This document shows, in pieces, positions 27,110 through 35,618 of a stretch of 64,000 nucleotides of DNA. The position numbers were made by a program, and so were the translations under genes. The notes under the pieces were generated by a model. It was given only the letters and a program-made list of their open reading frames with translations. It made no database searches and was not told the origin of the DNA. The DNA is taken from the sequence record OR780565.1. One strand, 5' to 3'. How positions within the stretch are numbered: the stretch's first letter is position 1; each line of letters begins with the position of its first letter. This DNA is from Escherichia phage DCP2.

Positions 27110-27594
27110 TTTTAAAAACTCGCTGGTATGATTTAGATGATGGAGATGATGGCATTCCAGTTGATAGAGTTGATTGGAATGGCTGTTCCGAAGATATGAA
27201 AAATTTGTTGATTAGGGAGTTTAGAATGGGATATCAAGTAGTTAAGCCATCTACTGTAACAGACGATAAATTCGTTTGTATTCAAAACGGTCGTGCTAAG
27301 TTAACGAACGCTGAATGGTTTACGGATAAGAATATGCTTCTGTGGTATATCATTAGTCTTCCTGCGTCATCATTCGTATTTTACTTCTTTGGAAAAAATC
27401 CAATGGACAGAATAGGAGATTGGGCTCTTTGTACTATATTTGTTAATATTTTTACTGCAGCAATATTATCCGGAATATGGTGTGTGTTCATTGAAATGCC
27501 ATGGCGGTTACGCAGACAACAAAAGATTTTTGATGAAAAGAAATATGCTCAAAATTTAAATAACTTTATCACTGAATGCAGGAAATTAAAATGA
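27106..27594 (+). CDS. Small membrane protein (family member)
   Basis: 162 aa; hydrophobic helices; C-terminal NFITECRKLK; ATGA coupling to nudE. Confidence 0.5.
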   Translation: MILKTRWYDLDDGDDGIPVDRVDWNGCSEDMKNLLIREFRMGYQVVKPSTVTDDKFVCIQNGRAKLTNAEWFTDKNMLLWYIISLPASSFVFYFFGKNPMDRIGDWALCTIFVNIFTAAILSGIWCVFIEMPWRLRRQQKIFDEKKYAQNLNNFITECRKLK

Positions 27595-28031
27595 AAACAT
27601 TATCAGCTGGTATTATCTTTATGACAGAAGATAAAGATTTATTTATGGGACGAGTTACCGGTTCTCGTAAACCTGGAATGATTGCACATCGCTGGGATAT
27701 TCCAAAGGGGCGTGTAGAAAGTTCTGATTTGAATGCACTGGAAGCTGCAAAAAGAGAATGCTCAGAAGAGACTGGTTTTATCGATTATAATCCAGACCTT
27801 CTAGAAGACTTAGGTGTATTTAAATATTCTAGTAATAAAGACTTACAGTTATTTTATTATACGATTCCAGTAGAGCATGAGATGTTTAGAAATTGCCATT
27901 GCGAGTCTTATTTTGAAAATAAAGATGGCGTTATGATTCCAGAGATGGATGCTTTTGCTCTTATTCCTCGTACTCAGTGGCAATATGTGATGGGTCCTTC
28001 ACTTTACCGAATAATGAACAGCCTCTTTTAA
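27591..28031 (+). CDS. nudE: Nudix hydrolase NudE
   Basis: Nudix box GRVESSDLNALEAAKRECSEETGF; position immediately upstream of e. Confidence 0.85.
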   Translation: MKTLSAGIIFMTEDKDLFMGRVTGSRKPGMIAHRWDIPKGRVESSDLNALEAAKRECSEETGFIDYNPDLLEDLGVFKYSSNKDLQLFYYTIPVEHEMFRNCHCESYFENKDGVMIPEMDAFALIPRTQWQYVMGPSLYRIMNSLF

Positions 28032-28834
<803 letters not shown>

Positions 28835-30326: not shown

Positions 30327-30689
30327 ATGAAAGCATATCAAATTCTTGAAGGCACGCATAAAGGTACTATTTATTTTGAAGATGGTATTCAAGCACGAAT
30401 TATTGTCTCTAAAACCTTTAAAGAGGACTCTTTTGTAGACCCGGAAATTTTTTACGGTTTGCATGCCCGCGAAATTGAAATTGAAACACAACCTACAGTT
30501 AAAATTGAAGGTGGTCAGCACCTGAACGTTAACGTTCTGCGTCGCGAAACTCTGGAAGATGCAGTTAAGCATCCGGAAAAATATCCGCAGCTGACCATCC
30601 GTGTATCCGGTTATGCAGTTCGCTTTAACTCTCTGACTCCGGAACAGCAGCGCGACGTTATCGCTCGTACCTTTACTGAGAGCTTGTAA
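30327..30689 (+). CDS. Autonomous glycyl-radical cofactor (GrcA/YfiD-like)
   Basis: C-terminal [29 protein letters not shown] glycyl-radical motif; 3' half has host-like GC and codon usage. Confidence 0.8.
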
Positions 30690-30910
30690 TGGCAAAGATA
30701 ATTATTGAAGGTTCTGAAGATGTGCTAAATGCTTTCGCCGAATGGTTTAGTAATTCAGGCGAACAGCAATTTAATGAAGCATGGAACATGGGTGATATTA
30801 ATGGAATTTATCCTACGACAGAAATTTCTGTTCAGGGATATGGCATTCATGAACCTATTCGTTTAGTTGAATATGATTTGGGAACAGGTGAGGAAGTAAA
30901 ATATGATTGA
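30689..30910 (+). CDS. Hypothetical protein
   Basis: 73-aa acidic ORF, coupled to neighbours. Confidence 0.4.
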   Translation: MAKIIIEGSEDVLNAFAEWFSNSGEQQFNEAWNMGDINGIYPTTEISVQGYGIHEPIRLVEYDLGTGEEVKYD

Positions 30911-31169
30911 AGACATTAAAGGTTATAAGCCACATACTGAAGAGAAAATCGGTAAAGTGAATGCTATCAAAGACGCTGAAGTTCGTTTAGGACTTATCTT
31001 TGATGCTTTATACGATGAATTCTGGGAAGCACTAGATAATTGTGAAGACTGTGAATTCGCAAAGAATTATTCCGAAAGTCTCGATCAGTTAACTATTGCT
31101 AAAACGAAGCTTAAAGAAGCCAGTATGTGGGCTTGTCGTGCTGTGTTCCAACCAGAGGAAAAATATTAA
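30903..31169 (+). CDS. Hypothetical protein in the vs.4 position (possible Acb2-family candidate)
   Basis: 88-aa ORF, fifth ORF after denV and second before regB; assignment by position only. Confidence 0.4.
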
Positions 31170-31447
31170 TGGCTCAATTAAGCGCAGGGTTTGGTTATGA
31201 GTATTATACTGCCCCTCGTCGTGTATCTGTCGCTCCTAAGAAAATTCAAAGTCTTGATGACTTCCAAGAAGTAGTCCGTAAAGCTTTCCAGGACTACGCA
31301 CGTTATCTTAAAGAAGATTCACAGGACTGTCTCGAAGAAGATGAAATTGCTTACTATGAGCAGCGTCTTGAACAGCTTAAAAACCTACATGAGGTTCGTG
31401 CAGAAGTTACAAAGTCTATGAATAAATTGATTAGATTTAAAGAATAA
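31169..31447 (+). CDS. Hypothetical protein
   Basis: ORF from internal Met ([13 protein letters not shown]...), overlapping the upstream stop. Confidence 0.45.
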
Positions 31448-31449
31448 CT

Positions 31450-31479
31450 GTTTACTTTTCCTCTTGACTGTGGTATAAT
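31450..31479 (+). promoter_or_regulatory. T4-type early promoter upstream of regB
   Basis: gtttac -35 and tggtataat extended -10. Confidence 0.65.
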
Positions 31480-31506
31480 TTTTCTATCAGTTAAGAGGAG
31501 AATAAC

Positions 31507-31968
31507 ATGACTATCAACACAGAAGTTTTTATCCGTCGAAATAAGCTTCGTCGTCACTTTGAGTCGGAGTTTCGTCAAATTAACAATGAGATTCGTGAGG
31601 CATCAAAAGCAGCAGGGGTCTCATCGTTTCATCTAAAATATTCTCAGCATCTTCTTGATCGTGCAATTCAACGGGAGATTGATGAGACATATGTTTTTGA
31701 ATTATTCCATAAAATAAAAGACCATGTTTTAGAAGTTAATGAATTCCTGAGTATGCCTCCGCGTCCTGACATTGACGAGGATTTTATTGATGGGGTTGAA
31801 TATCGTCCTGGGCGTTTAGAAATCACCGATGGAAATCTTTGGCTTGGATTTACAGTTTGTAAACCTAATGCGAAGTTCAAAGACCCGTCACTTCAGTGCA
31901 GGATGGCAATTATCAATAGTCGTCGTTTACCAGGAAAGGCTTCTAAAGCAGTAATTAAAACTCAATGA
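31507..31968 (+). CDS. regB: Endoribonuclease RegB
   Basis: 153 aa, same length as T4 RegB; synteny vs-regB-vs.x. Confidence 0.8.
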   Translation: MTINTEVFIRRNKLRRHFESEFRQINNEIREASKAAGVSSFHLKYSQHLLDRAIQREIDETYVFELFHKIKDHVLEVNEFLSMPPRPDIDEDFIDGVEYRPGRLEITDGNLWLGFTVCKPNAKFKDPSLQCRMAIINSRRLPGKASKAVIKTQ

Positions 31969-31975
31969 GGTAAGC

Positions 31976-32521
31976 ATGAGAAAAGCACTACTCGCTGGTC
32001 TATTGGCCATTTCAATGATGGCACATAGCTCCGAGCATACTTTCAGTAATGTCCAACTCGATAACATGCGTTACGCGTATCAATTCGGGGAACAATTTTC
32101 TAAGGATGGAAAATATAAAACACACAAAAACATCCATAAGAGCGGATTGGGTCATATAATGGCTGCTATTTTGTGGCAAGAAAGCTCTGCCGGAGTTAAT
32201 TTAAAATCTAAACCAAAGCATCATGCCTATGGAATGTTCCAAAATTATTTGCCAACTATGCGAGCAAGAGTTAAGGAACTTGGTTATAATATGACCGATG
32301 CCGAAATAAAAAGAATGTTGAATAAACGGTCCAATTCAGCTTCCTGGGCGTACATTGAACTTTCTTATTGGTTAAATATACATAAGGGTGATATAAGAAA
32401 AGCAATATCATCTTATAATTCGGGATGGAATGTTAAAGCAGGTTCTAAATATGCTTCTGAAGTCCTAGAAAAGGCTAATTACCTTAAAAATAATAAACTT
32501 TTGGAAATAGTAAATGACTAA
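31976..32521 (+). CDS. Secreted lytic transglycosylase-like protein
   Basis: N-terminal signal peptide; ILWQESS and YGMFQ motifs resembling SLT-family catalytic E-S and GLMQ. Confidence 0.55.
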   Translation: MRKALLAGLLAISMMAHSSEHTFSNVQLDNMRYAYQFGEQFSKDGKYKTHKNIHKSGLGHIMAAILWQESSAGVNLKSKPKHHAYGMFQNYLPTMRARVKELGYNMTDAEIKRMLNKRSNSASWAYIELSYWLNIHKGDIRKAISSYNSGWNVKAGSKYASEVLEKANYLKNNKLLEIVND

Positions 32522-32855
32522 AATTTTGGTTTTATGTATAGGATTAATTTCATTTTCTGTGTTAGCAGATACATCATATACTGAAATTAGAGAGTATGTA
32601 AACCGTACTGCAGCGGATTATTGCGGGAAAAATAAAGCATGCCAAGCTGAATTTGCGCAGAAATTAATATATGCATATAAAGACGGAGAAAGAGATAAAT
32701 CAAGCAGATACAAAAACGATACATTATTAAAACGATATGCTAAAAAGTGGAATACCTTAGAATGTTCAGTTGCGGAGGAGAAAGATAAAGCCGCTTGTCA
32801 TTCAATGGTTGACCGTTTGGTAGATTCTTATAATCGAGGATTGAGTACTAGATGA
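32514..32855 (+). CDS. Secreted protein in the vs (valyl-tRNA synthetase modifier) position
   Basis: 113 aa with signal-peptide-like N-terminus; by position only. Confidence 0.45.
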   Translation: MTKILVLCIGLISFSVLADTSYTEIREYVNRTAADYCGKNKACQAEFAQKLIYAYKDGERDKSSRYKNDTLLKRYAKKWNTLECSVAEEKDKAACHSMVDRLVDSYNRGLSTR

Positions 32856-33319
32856 TTGTAAAATATATCAAGGGCGATATTGTCGCCCTTTTCGCTGAAG
32901 GTAAAAATATTGCGCATGGATGCAATTGTTTTCATACTATGGGTTCAGGCGTAGCGGGTCAATTAACCAAAGCTTTCCCTAAAATTTTGGAAGCTGATAA
33001 ATTACAGACTGAATGGGGTGATGTAACTAAACTCGGTTCTTACTCAGTCTATGAAAAATACTTTAGGACTCATAAAGCGTATTGCTTCAACCTTTATACT
33101 CAATTTCAACCAGGGCCAAATTTTGAGTATTCCGCTTTAATGAATTGTATGTTAGAATTAAATGAGTTTGGTGAAAATAAACTGATTAAACCTACAATCT
33201 ATATGCCTAGGATTGGTGCAGGCATAGGTAAAGGGAACTGGGATATTATTGAGGGGATTTTAGATACATATTCCTCTAAATTAGAAATTGTGATTGTTGA
33301 TTGGGAACCGTTATTATGA
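32852..33319 (+). CDS. Macro-domain protein (ADP-ribose binding/processing candidate)
   Basis: GDIVALFAEGKNIAHGCNCFHTMGSGVAGQL and PRIGAGIGKG resemble macro-domain signature motifs. Confidence 0.55.
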   Translation: MIVKYIKGDIVALFAEGKNIAHGCNCFHTMGSGVAGQLTKAFPKILEADKLQTEWGDVTKLGSYSVYEKYFRTHKAYCFNLYTQFQPGPNFEYSALMNCMLELNEFGENKLIKPTIYMPRIGAGIGKGNWDIIEGILDTYSSKLEIVIVDWEPLL

Positions 33320-33528
33320 ATATACATTATCCACATCCATATGACCCAAAGAATAAGGTAGTAATTATTCGTCAATGGGAACGCATTTGCCGTACTAAAT
33401 GTCCAATTAATAGTCCGCATGATGTAGATAAAGACTACATTGGAACATTCGTTGAATATACCTTTATTGATAAGAAAGGTCGTAAACAGCATGTAGAAGA
33501 ATACTGCTTAAAGGTTACATGGTTATGA
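33301..33528 (+). CDS. Hypothetical protein
   Basis: 75-aa ORF. Confidence 0.4.
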   Translation: MGTVIMNIHYPHPYDPKNKVVIIRQWERICRTKCPINSPHDVDKDYIGTFVEYTFIDKKGRKQHVEEYCLKVTWL

Positions 33529-33731
33529 GCCAAACTAGTATTCTTAAAAATGCCCATTGTGAAAAGTGTAAATGGCCAGTTGTTTTTGCTTTATGCAACG
33601 ATGAAATGGCTTGTGATTTCGATTATTGGTGCTATTGTTCTAATAAAGGATGCATCAATCATAAAGGTGAAGGATTTTATTCGGGATTTTATCCTTATCC
33701 AGATTTCGTTAAAGAAGGTAAACCGAAATGA
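33519..33731 (+). CDS. Cysteine-rich small protein
   Basis: 70 aa with C-x2-C and multiple Cys/His; probable zinc binding. Confidence 0.4.
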   Translation: MVMSQTSILKNAHCEKCKWPVVFALCNDEMACDFDYWCYCSNKGCINHKGEGFYSGFYPYPDFVKEGKPK

Positions 33732-33901
33732 ATAGTTTTGAGTTACAGTATGAAGTGTTACGTGAGCTTGATAATTTAATTGAACTCGCTGTCAATAAAG
33801 GTTTTGCCATTGGAATCGGTCAAAAAGATACTGGTCATTTAACTATGGAAATATTTAAGCAAAAGCGAATTATTTTAAAACTCCTGGAAATTAATATATG
33901 A
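33728..33901 (+). CDS. Small hypothetical protein (below ORF-track cutoff)
   Basis: 57-aa ORF with ATGA overlaps at both ends (found by reading the sequence). Confidence 0.35.
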   Translation: MNSFELQYEVLRELDNLIELAVNKGFAIGIGQKDTGHLTMEIFKQKRIILKLLEINI

Positions 33902-34083
33902 GTCTGAGTAAAGAACAAAAAGATAAATTGTTTGAGCTTATCCATGAACTTCTAGATGAGCATACAGAAGCAAACACCTTTTATGATGAATACGGCCCGC
34001 TATCTCCCGAACAGCAAGAAGAATTTGCTGATCGGTTTGATAAGAAAGAAAACGAATTAATAGCTTATGTGAATATGCTTTAA
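33898..34083 (+). CDS. Hypothetical acidic protein
   Basis: 61-aa ORF directly upstream of tk. Confidence 0.4.
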   Translation: MSLSKEQKDKLFELIHELLDEHTEANTFYDEYGPLSPEQQEEFADRFDKKENELIAYVNML

Positions 34084-34092
34084 GAAGGTGAT

Positions 34093-34674
34093 ATGGCGAG
34101 TTTAATTTTTACTTACGCAGCAATGAATGCTGGAAAATCTGCTTCTCTTTTGACTGCTGCACATAATTATAAAGAACGCGGAATGGGTGTATTAGTTCTT
34201 AAGCCTGCTATTGATACTCGCGATTCTGTCTGTGAAGTCGTTTCTCGCATTGGAATTAAGCAGGAAGCGAATATTATTACGGATGATATGGATATTTTTG
34301 AGTTCTATAAATGGGCTGAAGCACAAAAAGATATTCATTGTGTATTTGTAGATGAAGCTCAGTTTTTAAAAACTGAACAGGTGCATCAATTAAGTCGAAT
34401 TGTTGATACATATAATGTTCCTGTTATGGCTTATGGGCTAAGGACTGATTTCGCTGGAAAATTATTTGAAGGTTCTAAAGAACTTTTGGCGATTGCAGAT
34501 AAACTTATTGAACTAAAGGCAGTTTGTCATTGTGGTAAAAAAGCTATTATGACAGCTCGATTAATGGAAGATGGAACACCAGTTAAAGAAGGTAATCAAA
34601 TCTGTATTGGTGATGAAATTTATGTTTCTTTGTGTAGAAAACATTGGAACGAATTAACTAAAAAGCTCGGTTAG
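34093..34674 (+). CDS. tk: Thymidine kinase
   Basis: 193 aa; P-loop AMNAGKS; C-x2-C zinc motifs; size matches T4 Tk. Confidence 0.9.
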   Translation: MASLIFTYAAMNAGKSASLLTAAHNYKERGMGVLVLKPAIDTRDSVCEVVSRIGIKQEANIITDDMDIFEFYKWAEAQKDIHCVFVDEAQFLKTEQVHQLSRIVDTYNVPVMAYGLRTDFAGKLFEGSKELLAIADKLIELKAVCHCGKKAIMTARLMEDGTPVKEGNQICIGDEIYVSLCRKHWNELTKKLG

Positions 34675-34683
34675 TGCAAAAGT

Positions 34684-34691
34684 TATAAATA
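34684..34691 (+). promoter_or_regulatory. Late promoter TATAAATA
   Basis: Exact TATAAATA 26 nt upstream of the ATG at 34717. Confidence 0.4.
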
Positions 34692-34716
34692 GGTTTATCT
34701 AACTAAAGGGGTATAT

Positions 34717-34929
34717 ATGCTACAATTAACTGAAAAGCAACTTCGCAATCTTACTGTTCTTCAATTAGATGAAATTCGTAGGGAAGTTGGAAATATCATT
34801 TCAGCTTTGCGTCGAGAAGTATCACTCAACCAATCTCCGGCAGACTATACTAGATTGCGAAATTTTGAAAAATACCTTGATAAAGTTAAGGCCGTGCATC
34901 GGCATAAAGTAAATACAGGACAAAAATGA
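34717..34929 (+). CDS. Hypothetical protein in the rI.1 position
   Basis: 70-aa ORF between tk and rI. Confidence 0.4.
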
Positions 34930-34941
34930 TAGGAGGCCTTT

Positions 34942-35235
34942 ATGGCCTTAAAAGCAACGGCACTATTTGCCATGCTAGGATTAGCGTTTGCTTTATCTCC
35001 ACCAATTGAAGCGAATGTCGATCCTCATTTTGATAAATTTATGGAATCTGGTATTAGACACGTTTATATGCTTTTTGAAAATAAAAGCGTAGAATCATCT
35101 GAACAGTTCTATAGTTTTATGCGAACGACTTATAAAAATGACCCGTGCTCTTCCGATTTTGAATGTATAGAGCGAGGCGCGGAGATGGCACAATCATACG
35201 CTAGAATTATGAACATTAAATTGGAGACTGAATGA
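34942..35235 (+). CDS. rI: Lysis inhibition regulator rI
   Basis: 97 aa with N-terminal signal-anchor; sequence matches my recollection of T4 RI. Confidence 0.8.
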   Translation: MALKATALFAMLGLAFALSPPIEANVDPHFDKFMESGIRHVYMLFENKSVESSEQFYSFMRTTYKNDPCSSDFECIERGAEMAQSYARIMNIKLETE

Positions 35236-35618
35236 AATTCAGCGACTTTTCACAAAGTGGAAAACCTTCAAAGGCAGATGAATACTTAGGTTTATTAATG
35301 GCTGCACAAGCTTATTTTCATTCTGCGCATTTTGAAACTAAAAGTTATGCTAGACACAAAGCATACGATTTTATTTTCTCTGAGTTGCCAGATTTGATTG
35401 ATAAATTTGGTGAGCAATATTTGGGGTATTCTGGTAGAAAATACACGCCTTCTATTCCAGATGCCAGTAAACTTCCTACCGACACAATTAAAATGATTGA
35501 TCGCATACTAGACCAATCTAACAGCATTTATAAAGAAATGCCTCCAGCCATTCAAAGCACGATAGATGATATTACTGGGATGTTTTACCAGAGTAAATAT
35601 CTTCTTTCCCTCGAATAA
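35232..35618 (+). CDS. Hypothetical protein in the rI.-1 position
   Basis: 128-aa ORF, ATGA-coupled to rI. Confidence 0.5.

What the first reader, a model, noticed from the sequence alone, without database searches (positions are those of the whole stretch)
32852..33319. Macro-domain protein encoded between vs and tk
Seen: the 155-aa product contains GDIVALF...IAHGCNCFHTMGSGVAGQL and IYMPRIGAGIGKGNW. Established knowledge: these resemble the two signature segments of macro domains, which bind or hydrolyse ADP-ribose derivatives; T-even phages ADP-ribosylate host proteins, and some host defences act through NAD-derived or ADP-ribosyl signals. Inference: an ADP-ribose-processing enzyme with a possible regulatory or counter-defence role.
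Basis: partly seen in the sequence, partly recalled or inferred. Interest (0 to 1): 0.5.

Follow-up and report, generated by a model that had tools for sequence, protein, structure and literature searches.

The report
Phage T4 tk.4/adfM macrodomain gene

Summary
The ORF is real: window 32852-33319 (+), 155 aa, with the quoted motifs. It is 100% identical to phage T4 Tk.4 (NP_049723.1), which RefSeq labels "phosphatase; A1pp motif" and many phage records label "macro domain protein".

A 2025 preprint (HIDEN-SEQ) found tk.4 to be the only T4 gene conditionally essential on a DarTG2 host. A clean knockout sensitised T4, and the gene was renamed adfM.

One point I did not see in the papers I read: Tk.4 lacks the catalytic lysine of DarG and TARG1. 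That position holds a glutamine (Q84), present in all 339 other family members that align there. The same arrangement occurs in Streptomyces SCO6735, a proven thymidine-ADP-ribose DNA hydrolase whose Q85A mutant is inactive.

Tk.4 is only remotely related to the lysine-type PhiKZ "AdfM". Its bacterial relatives are stand-alone genes with no DarT beside them. No biochemical test of T4 Tk.4 turned up.

The parts
32852..33319 (+). tk.4 / adfM coding sequence (155 aa, stop included): a stand-alone macrodomain protein
   Evidence: ORF list. 100% identical to T4 NP_049723.1. Pfam Macro above threshold. AlphaFold2 model pLDDT 95.6. TARG1-like fold neighbours.
32852..32855 (+). ATGA overlap: the tk.4 start codon overlaps the vs stop codon, suggesting translational coupling within one early transcript
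   Evidence: Read directly from the sequence. The same arrangement is annotated in PYps5T and T4. The coupling itself is inferred.
33316..33319 (+). ATGA overlap: the tk.3 (DUF7202) start codon overlaps the tk.4 stop codon
   Evidence: Sequence. Annotated CDS boundaries in PYps5T. Pfam DUF7202 for 33316-33525.
32915..32956 (+). Loop 1 of the ADP-ribose pocket, residues H22-G-C-N25-C-F-H-T-M-G-S-G-V-A35. N25 aligns with DarG N22 and SCO6735 N27, and H22 with SCO6735 H24 and Poa1p H23.
   Evidence: Family alignment: N25, G23, C26, G33 and A35 invariant. N25 in 259/260 and H22 in 248/260, and both 80/80 in bacterial loci. Alignments to DarG and SCO6735.
32996..32998 (+). Codon for D49, an invariant residue specific to this family. 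It is Tyr in SCO6735, BT1257 and Poa1p, and a gap in TARG1. Its role is unknown.
   Evidence: 259/260 and 80/80 conservation. Alignments.
33089..33103 (+). N80-L-Y82-T83-Q84 strand. Q84 occupies the position of the catalytic Lys84 of TARG1 and Lys80 of DarG, and matches Gln85 of SCO6735.
   Evidence: hhalign to TARG1 and Thermus DarG. HMM alignment to SCO6735 and BT1257. Q84 in 259/260 sequences with one gap, and never Lys; 80/80 in bacterial loci. The SCO6735 Q85A mutant is inactive (PMC9411070).
33206..33241 (+). Loop 2, the diphosphate-binding loop: P119-R-I-G-A-G-I-G126-K-G-N-W130. G126 sits where TARG1 has the catalytic Asp125.
   Evidence: P119, I121, G122 and G124 invariant. hhalign to TARG1.

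Best explanation
The ORF is phage T4 gene tk.4, recently renamed adfM. It encodes a 155-aa stand-alone macrodomain of the TARG1-like (ALC1-like) class. It is expressed as part of the early regB-vs-tk gene string.

Its most likely job is counter-defence. The host DarT2 toxin attaches ADP-ribose to thymidines in single-stranded phage DNA and blocks replication. Tk.4 binds the ADP-ribose in its macrodomain cleft, hydrolyses the ribose-thymine N-glycosidic bond, and releases free ADP-ribose and intact DNA.

It does not use the catalytic lysine of the DarG antitoxin and human TARG1. The equivalent position carries an invariant glutamine (Q84), alongside H22 and N25, as in Streptomyces SCO6735. In SCO6735 the glutamine is essential, and a water-mediated mechanism has been proposed for it.

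What is shown: gene identity, macro fold, class membership and active-site composition (here), and the anti-DarTG2 phenotype of tk.4 mutants (preprint).

What is inferred: that protection works through enzymatic removal of thymidine-linked ADP-ribose, and that Q84 is the key residue.
For: Identity. The protein is 100% identical to T4 Tk.4.

Fold and class.
- Pfam Macro scores above its cut-off.
- The AlphaFold2 model has pLDDT 95.6 and pTM 0.91.
- Foldseek gives the same set, plus SCO6735.

Genetics (preprint). tk.4 was the single significant hit in a T4 transposon library on a DarTG2 host, and a clean knockout became sensitive. T4 lacking adfA and adfN stays DarTG2-resistant, so another factor was already expected (PMC11825919).

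Class-function correlation. Only TARG1-like macrodomains (TARG1, DarG, SCO6735) cleave thymine- or uracil-linked ADP-ribose. MacroD, PARG, ARH and NADAR enzymes do not (PMC12879935; PMC13036486).

Active site.
- Q84 aligns with TARG1 K84, DarG K80 and SCO6735 Q85.
- SCO6735 Q85A is inactive. The wild-type enzyme removes thymidine-ADPr from DNA and protects cells from DarT (PMC9411070).
- Q84, N25, Y82 and D49 are each conserved in 259/260 family members and in 80/80 bacterial loci.

Domain fusion. One family member fuses this macro type to a NADAR domain, the enzyme type that reverses guanine ADP-ribosylation, and to DUF4326.
Against: I found no biochemical assay of T4 Tk.4 in the library. The preprint itself writes only that 'it seems likely' the protein removes ADP-ribose from DNA.

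The passages I read describe no complementation and no catalytic-site mutant, and the work is not yet peer-reviewed.

Tk.4 lacks the Lys that DarG and TARG1 need. It also lacks the extended lysine-bearing mobile loop that SCO6735 uses for DNA binding; the alignment shows SCO6735 with 5 extra residues there.

The protein is mildly acidic (pI 5.9), unlike the basic DarG, TARG1 and SCO6735. However, the biochemically proven PhiKZ AdfM is also acidic, at pI 5.05.

SCO6735 Q85A, DarG K80A and TARG1 K84A all still inhibit DarT without catalysis. A non-enzymatic contribution therefore remains possible.
Confidence: 0.75

Rival explanations
1. Tk.4 protects mainly without catalysis. It would bind or occlude DarT2, or sequester its NAD-derived or ADP-ribosylated substrate, acting as an inhibitor rather than an eraser.
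For: Catalytically dead SCO6735 Q85A, DarG K80A and TARG1 K84A all inhibit DarT in vitro, and SCO6735 does so most strongly (PMC9411070). [quoted passage not shown] Tk.4 lacks the catalytic Lys.
Against: The putative catalytic residues (N25, Q84, H22) and the ADP-ribose-binding loops are almost perfectly conserved across 260 + 80 sequences, including bacterial members that have no DarT nearby. That pattern fits an enzyme better than a toxin-specific binder. Tk.4 also has no counterpart of the DarG C-terminal DarT-binding domain; the match covers only 2-146 of 338 profile positions.
Confidence: 0.1
2. Tk.4 is a small-molecule ADP-ribose metabolite enzyme, as the RefSeq and PHROG label 'phosphatase' implies. 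It would be an ADP-ribose-1''-phosphate phosphatase or an O-acetyl-ADP-ribose deacetylase, like yeast Poa1p.
For: The H-x-C-N-C motif matches Poa1p (HSCNC), and Poa1p is the second-best structural neighbour. T4 RefSeq says 'contains A1pp phosphatase motif'. PHROG 335 is named 'phosphatase'. In one T4-like contig the gene sits beside RNA ligase 1 and close to polynucleotide kinase.
Against: From established knowledge, Appr-1''-p arises from Tpt1/KptA 2'-phosphotransferase action. The T4 Pnkp/Rnl1 tRNA repair route leaves no 2'-phosphate, so no source of this substrate is evident. Poa1p has Ser where Tk.4 has its invariant Gln. This activity would not explain the DarTG2-specific phenotype. The 'phosphatase' names were transferred by homology and never tested.
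Confidence: 0.06
3. Tk.4 reverses or tunes the ADP-ribosylation (or RNAylation) that T4's own Alt, ModA and ModB enzymes place on host proteins.
For: T4 encodes three ADP-ribosyltransferases (established knowledge; cited). A phage-encoded eraser would be a logical partner. SCO6735 and TARG1 also act on protein substrates.
Against: From established knowledge, Alt, ModA and ModB modify arginine, and TARG1-like macrodomains are known for Glu/Asp esters and pyrimidine bases rather than arginine N-glycosides. tk.4 was dispensable on plain E. coli K-12 and needed only with DarTG2. The family is common in bacteria and in phages regardless of Alt/Mod-type genes.
Confidence: 0.04
4. Tk.4 degrades or sequesters NAD-derived immune signals, such as the cyclic ADP-ribose isomers of Thoeris.
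Confidence: 0.03

Closest known systems
T4 Tk.4 / AdfM (NP_049723.1; bioRxiv 10.1101/2025.11.20.689424)
   Same: Identical protein, 155/155 residues, in the same position downstream of vs. It is the reported anti-DarTG2 factor.
   Different: No difference at the protein level. The window itself is not the T4 reference genome: its best DNA match is Yersinia phage PYps5T at 99.5%, vs is 113 aa rather than 115 aa, and there are four rather than three small ORFs before tk.
Streptomyces coelicolor SCO6735 (PDB 5e3b), and the related Bacteroides BT1257 (2fg1/2afc)
   Different: Sequence identity is only about 20-29%. Tk.4 has N-x-Y-T-Q where they have N-M-I-G-Q. It has an invariant Asp49 where they have Tyr. 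Its loop after the Gln is about 5 residues shorter and lacks SCO6735 Lys89/Lys94. It is acidic rather than basic.
DarG antitoxin macrodomain (Thermus aquaticus 5m31/5m3e, M. tuberculosis 5m3i)
   Different: DarG uses Lys80; Tk.4 has Gln84. DarG has a C-terminal DarT-binding domain and sits in an operon with darT; Tk.4 has neither. Tk.4 scores 30 bits against a cut-off of 250 on the NCBIfam DarG model.
PhiKZ gp104 'AdfM' (Cell Rep 2026, PMC13309987)
   Same: A phage-encoded stand-alone macrodomain that counters DarTG2, given the same name. Removal of ADP-ribose from DarT2-modified DNA has been shown biochemically for it.
   Different: PhiKZ gp104 is DarG-like. It matches M. tuberculosis DarG at E=9e-25 and keeps the P-T-K lysine motif. 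BLASTP against Tk.4 aligns only 23 residues (21 bits), and hhalign gives 96.6% probability. The two 'AdfM' proteins therefore come from different subfamilies and were probably recruited independently.
Human TARG1/OARD1 (4j5q-s)
   Same: Top Foldseek hit, with TM about 0.74-0.82 and E=1e-9. It cleaves thymine- and uracil-linked ADP-ribose.
   Different: The TARG1 catalytic dyad Lys84/Asp125 is replaced by Gln84/Gly126 in Tk.4.
Yeast Poa1p (6lfq-u), ADP-ribose-1''-phosphate phosphatase
   Different: Poa1p has Thr-Ser where Tk.4 has Thr-Gln, and it carries a long insertion before loop 2. The biological contexts differ: tRNA-splicing by-product against phage counter-defence.

Membership tests
Macro domain superfamily (Pfam PF01661) | Profile score above the curated gathering threshold | tested here: met
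   27.7 bits against a cut-off of 22, E=2.9e-6, covering residues 22-132 and profile positions 2-113 of 118.
Macro domain superfamily (Pfam PF01661) | Three-layer alpha/beta/alpha fold with a mixed central sheet | tested here: met
Macro domain superfamily (Pfam PF01661) | ADP-ribose-binding loops: loop 1 with Asn and a G-x-G, and loop 2 with a glycine-rich diphosphate loop | tested here: met
   H22-G-C-N25...M-G-S-G33 and P119-R-I-G-A-G-I-G-K-G128 align with the corresponding loops of TARG1, DarG, SCO6735 and BT1257. They are near-invariant in the family.
Macro domain superfamily (Pfam PF01661) | Actual binding or hydrolysis of ADP-ribose derivatives | not testable with these tools
   This needs purified protein. 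No assay of T4 Tk.4 was found in the literature searches.
TARG1-like / ALC1-like macrodomain class | Closest structural and sequence neighbours are class members (TARG1, DarG, SCO6735, Poa1p, BT1257), clearly separated from the MacroD, viral, PARG and macroH2A classes | tested here: met
DarG antitoxin (NCBIfam NF048014; PADLOC DarG) | Equivalog-level profile score | tested here: not met
   30.3 bits against a cut-off of 250, matching only profile positions 2-146 of 338. The PADLOC DarG model gives 36 bits over positions 2-145 of 329.
DarG antitoxin (NCBIfam NF048014; PADLOC DarG) | Catalytic lysine (Lys80 in Thermus and M. tuberculosis DarG) | tested here: not met
   hhalign places Tk.4 Q84 opposite DarG K80, in the context F-N-L-Y-T-Q against F-N-F-P-T-K. 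Lys is never found at this position in 260 + 80 family members.
DarG antitoxin (NCBIfam NF048014; PADLOC DarG) | C-terminal DarT-binding domain and an adjacent darT gene | tested here: not met
   The protein is 155 aa and consists of the macro domain only. Its neighbours are vs and tk.3. None of 80 bacterial loci with this macro type has a DarT2 homologue within 5 kb. That test used a single DarT2 query with tblastn at E<=1e-3, so its sensitivity is limited.
TARG1/OARD1 | Lys84/Asp125 catalytic dyad | tested here: not met
   The aligned residues are Gln84 and Gly126. The TARG1 sequence used was verified against PDB 2lgr.
SCO6735/BT1257-type Gln macrodomains | Gln at the catalytic-lysine position, with His and Asn in loop 1 (SCO6735 H24, N27, Q85) | tested here: met
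   I-A-H22-G-C-N25 aligns with I-A-H24-V-C-N27, and N-L-Y-T-Q84 aligns with N-M-I-G-Q85. The functional importance of Q85 comes from PMC9411070.
SCO6735/BT1257-type Gln macrodomains | Extended, lysine-bearing mobile loop after the Gln (K89/K94), implicated in DNA binding | tested here: not met
   SCO6735 and BT1257 carry a 5-6 residue insertion relative to the Tk.4-family profile at this loop. Tk.4 has Q-F-Q-P-G-P-N there, with no Lys.
Poa1p-like ADP-ribose-1''-phosphate phosphatases | Residues probed by the deposited Poa1p mutants H23A and S30A, and a substrate-producing pathway | tested here: inconclusive
   H22 matches H23 and T29 matches S30. However, T29 varies within the family, and Poa1p has Ser where Tk.4 has Q84. 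I did not search the window for a Tpt1/KptA-type source of Appr-1''-p.
AdfM (functional name: anti-DarT factor, macrodomain) | Loss of the gene sensitises the phage to DarTG2 | not testable with these tools
   This is reported for T4 tk.4 in a preprint. The protein here is identical to it.

The most novel reading that the evidence does not exclude
T4 Tk.4 would represent a second, mechanistically distinct kind of phage anti-DarT2 eraser. It would be a lysine-less, glutamine-type (SCO6735-like, probably water-activating) thymidine-ADP-ribose glycohydrolase. It would have been recruited from the widespread orphan bacterial macrodomains rather than from the DarG antitoxin, and so be non-orthologous to the DarG-like PhiKZ 'AdfM'. 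Family-specific invariant residues (D49, Y82) would have an unknown catalytic or DNA-recognition role. The substrate range might be broader, for example uracil-ADP-ribose on RNA.
Probability: 0.5. Interest if true: 0.35.

Novelty: already known. Interest (0 to 1): 0.2.

Why it matters
This gene matters as one layer of the T-even phages' stacked defences against DNA ADP-ribosylation. AdfA and AdfN act against DarTG1, and Tk.4/AdfM acts against DarTG2. That role has already been published as a preprint, so the finding opens no new question.

What remains useful is mechanistic. The T4 protein lacks the lysine on which DarG and TARG1 depend and instead has the glutamine-type site of SCO6735. The family holds at least 1,270 clusters at 50% identity and occurs in 2,750 phage records and at least 519 bacterial genome loci. 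It could therefore serve as a compact model for lysine-independent reversal of base-linked ADP-ribosylation.

It also shows that the single name 'AdfM' currently covers two non-orthologous proteins.

Tried and rejected
1. Promoter and terminator scan of 30500-35500. There were 17 promoter-like sites against 17.7 expected, so no enrichment. Only the site at 31451-31479 upstream of regB looks strong (10 of 12 matches, with TG). I made no claim from it.

2. NCBIfam and PADLOC returned only sub-threshold DarG matches over the macro half. I used these as a negative membership test, not as an annotation.

3. Direct hhalign of the family against PhiKZ gp104 puts the catalytic strand 2 residues out of register. 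I relied instead on the chain PhiKZ to DarG and DarG to Tk.4.

4. Net charge as a proxy for DNA binding. I rejected it because the proven DNA eraser PhiKZ gp104 is even more acidic than Tk.4.

5. A search for DarT next to bacterial Tk.4-type genes found none in 80 loci. The neighbours are lineage-specific housekeeping genes with no conserved partner, so gene context gives no functional clue beyond one adjacent NADAR gene.

6. I could not place D49 and Y82 in three dimensions, because the tools do not expose the model's coordinates.

7. The Iyer et al. 2022 survey (PMC9503650) does not mention Tk.4 specifically. The CmdTAC paper has nothing on a T4 macrodomain.

8. Two literature calls failed on terms that were too short.

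Full report
**Observation**

The window holds an ATG-initiated ORF at 32852-33319 on the + strand that encodes 155 aa (DNA).

The start codon overlaps the stop codon of the upstream 113-aa gene in an ATGA. The stop codon overlaps the start of the next small gene the same way.

The neighbouring genes are:
- RegB endoribonuclease, 31507-31968
- an SLT-domain protein (vs.1), 31976-32521
- vs, 32514-32855
- the ORF in question
- DUF7202 (tk.3), a small zinc-binding protein, and two more small ORFs
- thymidine kinase, 34093-34674

The region is 99.5% identical to Yersinia phage PYps5T and more than 99% identical to many Tequatrovirus genomes. The protein is 155/155 identical to phage T4 Tk.4, NP_049723.1.

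**Is it a macrodomain?**

Yes.
- Pfam Macro scores 27.7 bits against a gathering cut-off of 22.
- PDB sequence searches find Bacteroides BT1257, yeast Poa1p, Streptomyces SCO6735, human TARG1 and the DarG macrodomains. The single sequence gives E values as low as 1.3e-9, and a 53-sequence family profile gives 1.9e-18.
- An AlphaFold2 model built on that alignment has mean pLDDT 95.6 and pTM 0.91.

The protein therefore belongs to the TARG1-like (ALC1-like) class.

**What is already known**

Many phage records call the gene 'macro domain protein' or 'Poa1p-like'.

The bioRxiv preprint 10.1101/2025.11.20.689424 (HIDEN-SEQ, November 2025) screened a T4 transposon library on E. coli carrying DarTG2. 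It found tk.4 as the single significant hit and showed that a clean knockout is sensitised. It renamed the gene adfM (anti-DarT factor, macrodomain). The authors state only that enzymatic removal of ADP-ribose from DNA 'seems likely'.

This fits earlier work showing that T4 lacking adfA and adfN stays DarTG2-resistant (PMC11825919). I found no biochemical study of T4 Tk.4 in the library.

That interpretation is supported, and the finding is already known.

**What the sequence adds**

A 53-member alignment reaching down to 34% identity has these invariant residues: G23, N25, C26, G33, A35, D49, N80, Y82, T83, Q84, P119, I121, G122 and G124.

Profile-profile alignment puts Q84 exactly opposite the catalytic Lys84 of TARG1 and Lys80 of Thermus DarG. 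G126 sits opposite TARG1 Asp125. The TARG1 sequence was verified against PDB 2lgr.

Position 84 is Gln in 259 of 260 sequences and a gap in the other. It is also Gln in 80 of 80 bacterial genome loci. It is never Lys.

The HMM alignment to SCO6735 matches I-A-H22-G-C-N25 with I-A-H24-V-C-N27, and N-L-Y-T-Q84 with N-M-I-G-Q85.

PMC9411070 reports several things about SCO6735:
- It lacks the TARG1 and DarG catalytic residues.
- Its Q85A mutant is completely inactive.
- It removes thymidine-linked ADP-ribose from DNA and protects cells from DarT.
- A water-mediated mechanism was proposed for it.

Two 2026 papers show that only TARG1-like macrodomains (TARG1, DarG, SCO6735) cleave thymine- or uracil-linked ADP-ribose. 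MacroD, PARG, ARH and NADAR enzymes do not (PMC12879935; PMC13036486).

Tk.4 thus has the right fold class and a precedented lysine-free active site for the inferred reaction. It differs from SCO6735 in three ways:
- The loop after the Gln is shorter and has no lysines.
- D49 and Y82 are invariant in the Tk.4 family but not shared with SCO6735.
- Its pI is acidic, 5.9.

**Relation to the other 'AdfM'**

A Cell Reports 2026 paper (PMC13309987) gave the same name to PhiKZ gp104. It showed biochemically that gp104 removes DarT2-made ADP-ribose from DNA, and that an N23A mutant is impaired.

Translating the published construct shows that gp104 is DarG-like. It matches M. tuberculosis DarG at E=9e-25 and keeps the P-T-K lysine motif.

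Against Tk.4, BLASTP aligns only 23 residues, and hhalign gives 96.6% probability. The two proteins share a class and a role but belong to different subfamilies, which suggests independent recruitment.

**Distribution and context**

- tblastn finds the family in 2,750 of 50,697 phage records, across many host genera.
- A profile search of 1.84 billion cluster representatives gives 1,270 hits at E<=1e-30 and 9,183 at E<=1e-10.
- A scan of species-representative bacterial genomes found at least 519 loci, many inside megabase-size chromosomes of diverse phyla.
- In the best 80 loci, no DarT2 homologue lies within 5 kb. The neighbours are lineage-specific housekeeping genes, and one locus has a NADAR gene immediately upstream.
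- One metagenomic family member fuses this macro type to NADAR and DUF4326. That combines the enzyme types that reverse thymine- and guanine-linked ADP-ribosylation.

Tk.4-type proteins are therefore orphan stand-alone macrodomains, not truncated DarG antitoxins. NCBIfam DarG gives 30 bits against a cut-off of 250, and PADLOC DarG matches only the macro half.

**Mechanism and rivals**

Best explanation (confidence about 0.75): this is an early-expressed eraser that hydrolyses thymidine-linked ADP-ribose placed on phage single-stranded DNA by DarT2, using the N25/Q84 site.

- Shown here: identity, fold, class and active-site composition.
- Shown in the preprint: the DarTG2 phenotype.
- Inferred: the substrate and the chemistry.

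Rival explanations:
- Non-catalytic DarT2 inhibition (0.10). This is plausible because dead SCO6735, DarG and TARG1 mutants all inhibit DarT.
- A small-molecule Appr-1''-p phosphatase or O-acetyl-ADP-ribose deacetylase role, as the 'phosphatase' labels imply (0.06).
- Reversal of T4's own Alt/ModA/ModB marks (0.04).
- Interference with Thoeris-type signals (0.03).

None of these explains the DarTG2-specific phenotype as directly as the best explanation does.

**Verdict**

This is a correct reading of a gene whose identity and role are already published. Interest is low.

The remaining value is mechanistic. The glutamine-for-lysine active site, the non-orthology with PhiKZ AdfM and the family-specific invariant residues are all cheap to test in vitro.

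Noticed in passing
window 32870-32890 (inside the 5' end of tk.4): There is a perfect 8-bp GC-rich hairpin, AAGGGCGA-TATTG-TCGCCCTT, spanning codons 7-13 (KGDIVAL). It uses C-ending codons that are unusual for this AT-rich genome. On the minus strand it scores as terminator-like. It is nucleotide-invariant in four Tequatrovirus genomes, including two whose Tk.4 is only 58% identical. Serratia phage LC53 keeps an 8-bp stem built from different bases, and Enterobacter phage EnA02 has lost it. The fold of the surrounding 81 nt is not significant (z = -1.09), and a recombination boundary could also explain the identity..
   Followed up: partly
P0173 (472 aa) and P0224 (302 aa), metagenomic family members: P0173 is a Tk.4-type macro fused to NADAR and DUF4326 in one polypeptide. 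P0224 is DUF4326 fused to the macro. The macro-NADAR fusion joins the two enzyme types that reverse thymine- and guanine-linked DNA ADP-ribosylation. Fusions of this general kind were described by Iyer et al. 2022.
   Followed up: partly
L003 / L009 (contig JBOFGC010000414.1, labelled 'MAG: Bacilli bacterium'): This 44-kb contig is evidently a T4-like phage fragment binned into a bacterial MAG. It carries Rnl1, a Dda-like helicase, PNKP, a T4 spanin, dCMP deaminase and DNA ligase. Here the macro gene lies just downstream of DUF4326 and RNA ligase 1, separated from them by one small ORF, rather than next to vs.
   Followed up: no
window 27576-28031 (+): A Nudix hydrolase gene (Pfam NUDIX, E=4e-13) lies immediately upstream of the lysozyme gene at 28068-28556. 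It corresponds in position to T4 nudE/e.1, which from my own knowledge hydrolyses ADP-ribose among other substrates. It could dispose of the free ADP-ribose released by Tk.4, but this link is speculative.
   Followed up: no
window 32514-34083 compared with T4 NC_000866 60346-61733 (L002): The window is not the T4 reference genome. Its vs is 113 aa rather than 115 aa, and it has four small ORFs between tk.4 and tk where T4 RefSeq annotates three. The closest genome is Yersinia phage PYps5T.
   Followed up: partly
Public annotations of this gene and its neighbours: Labels for the same protein are inconsistent: 'phosphatase', 'Poa1p-like', 'macro domain protein', 'hypothetical protein', and even 'DNA binding protein' in a Bacillus phage. 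Neighbouring genes are also mislabelled. vs is called 'valyl-tRNA synthetase', T4 tk.3 is called 'Tk.2', and mobD.4 is called a molybdopterin-guanine dinucleotide biosynthesis protein.
   Followed up: no
Tk.4 residues D49 and Y82 (window 32996-32998 and 33095-33097): These two residues are invariant across 260 + 80 family members. The corresponding positions are not conserved in the relatives: D49 aligns with Tyr in SCO6735, BT1257 and Poa1p and with a gap in TARG1, and Y82 aligns with Ile, Pro or Phe in SCO6735, BT1257, TARG1, DarG and Poa1p. They mark the Tk.4 subfamily, and their role is unknown.
   Followed up: partly
window 32514-32855 (vs), translationally coupled to tk.4: The HIDEN-SEQ preprint reports vs as the most strongly depleted T4 gene in minimal medium. 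Its DarTG2 experiments were run in that same medium at 30 degrees C. Because vs and tk.4 overlap in an ATGA, polar or coupling effects between them deserve a control. The DarTG2 comparison did use an empty-vector control in the same medium.
   Followed up: no
L077 4544-4990 (Bacteroidales MAG): A NADAR-domain gene ends 10 bp upstream of a Tk.4-type macro gene in a bacterial contig. It is the only one of the 80 bacterial loci with an ADP-ribose-related neighbour.
   Followed up: no
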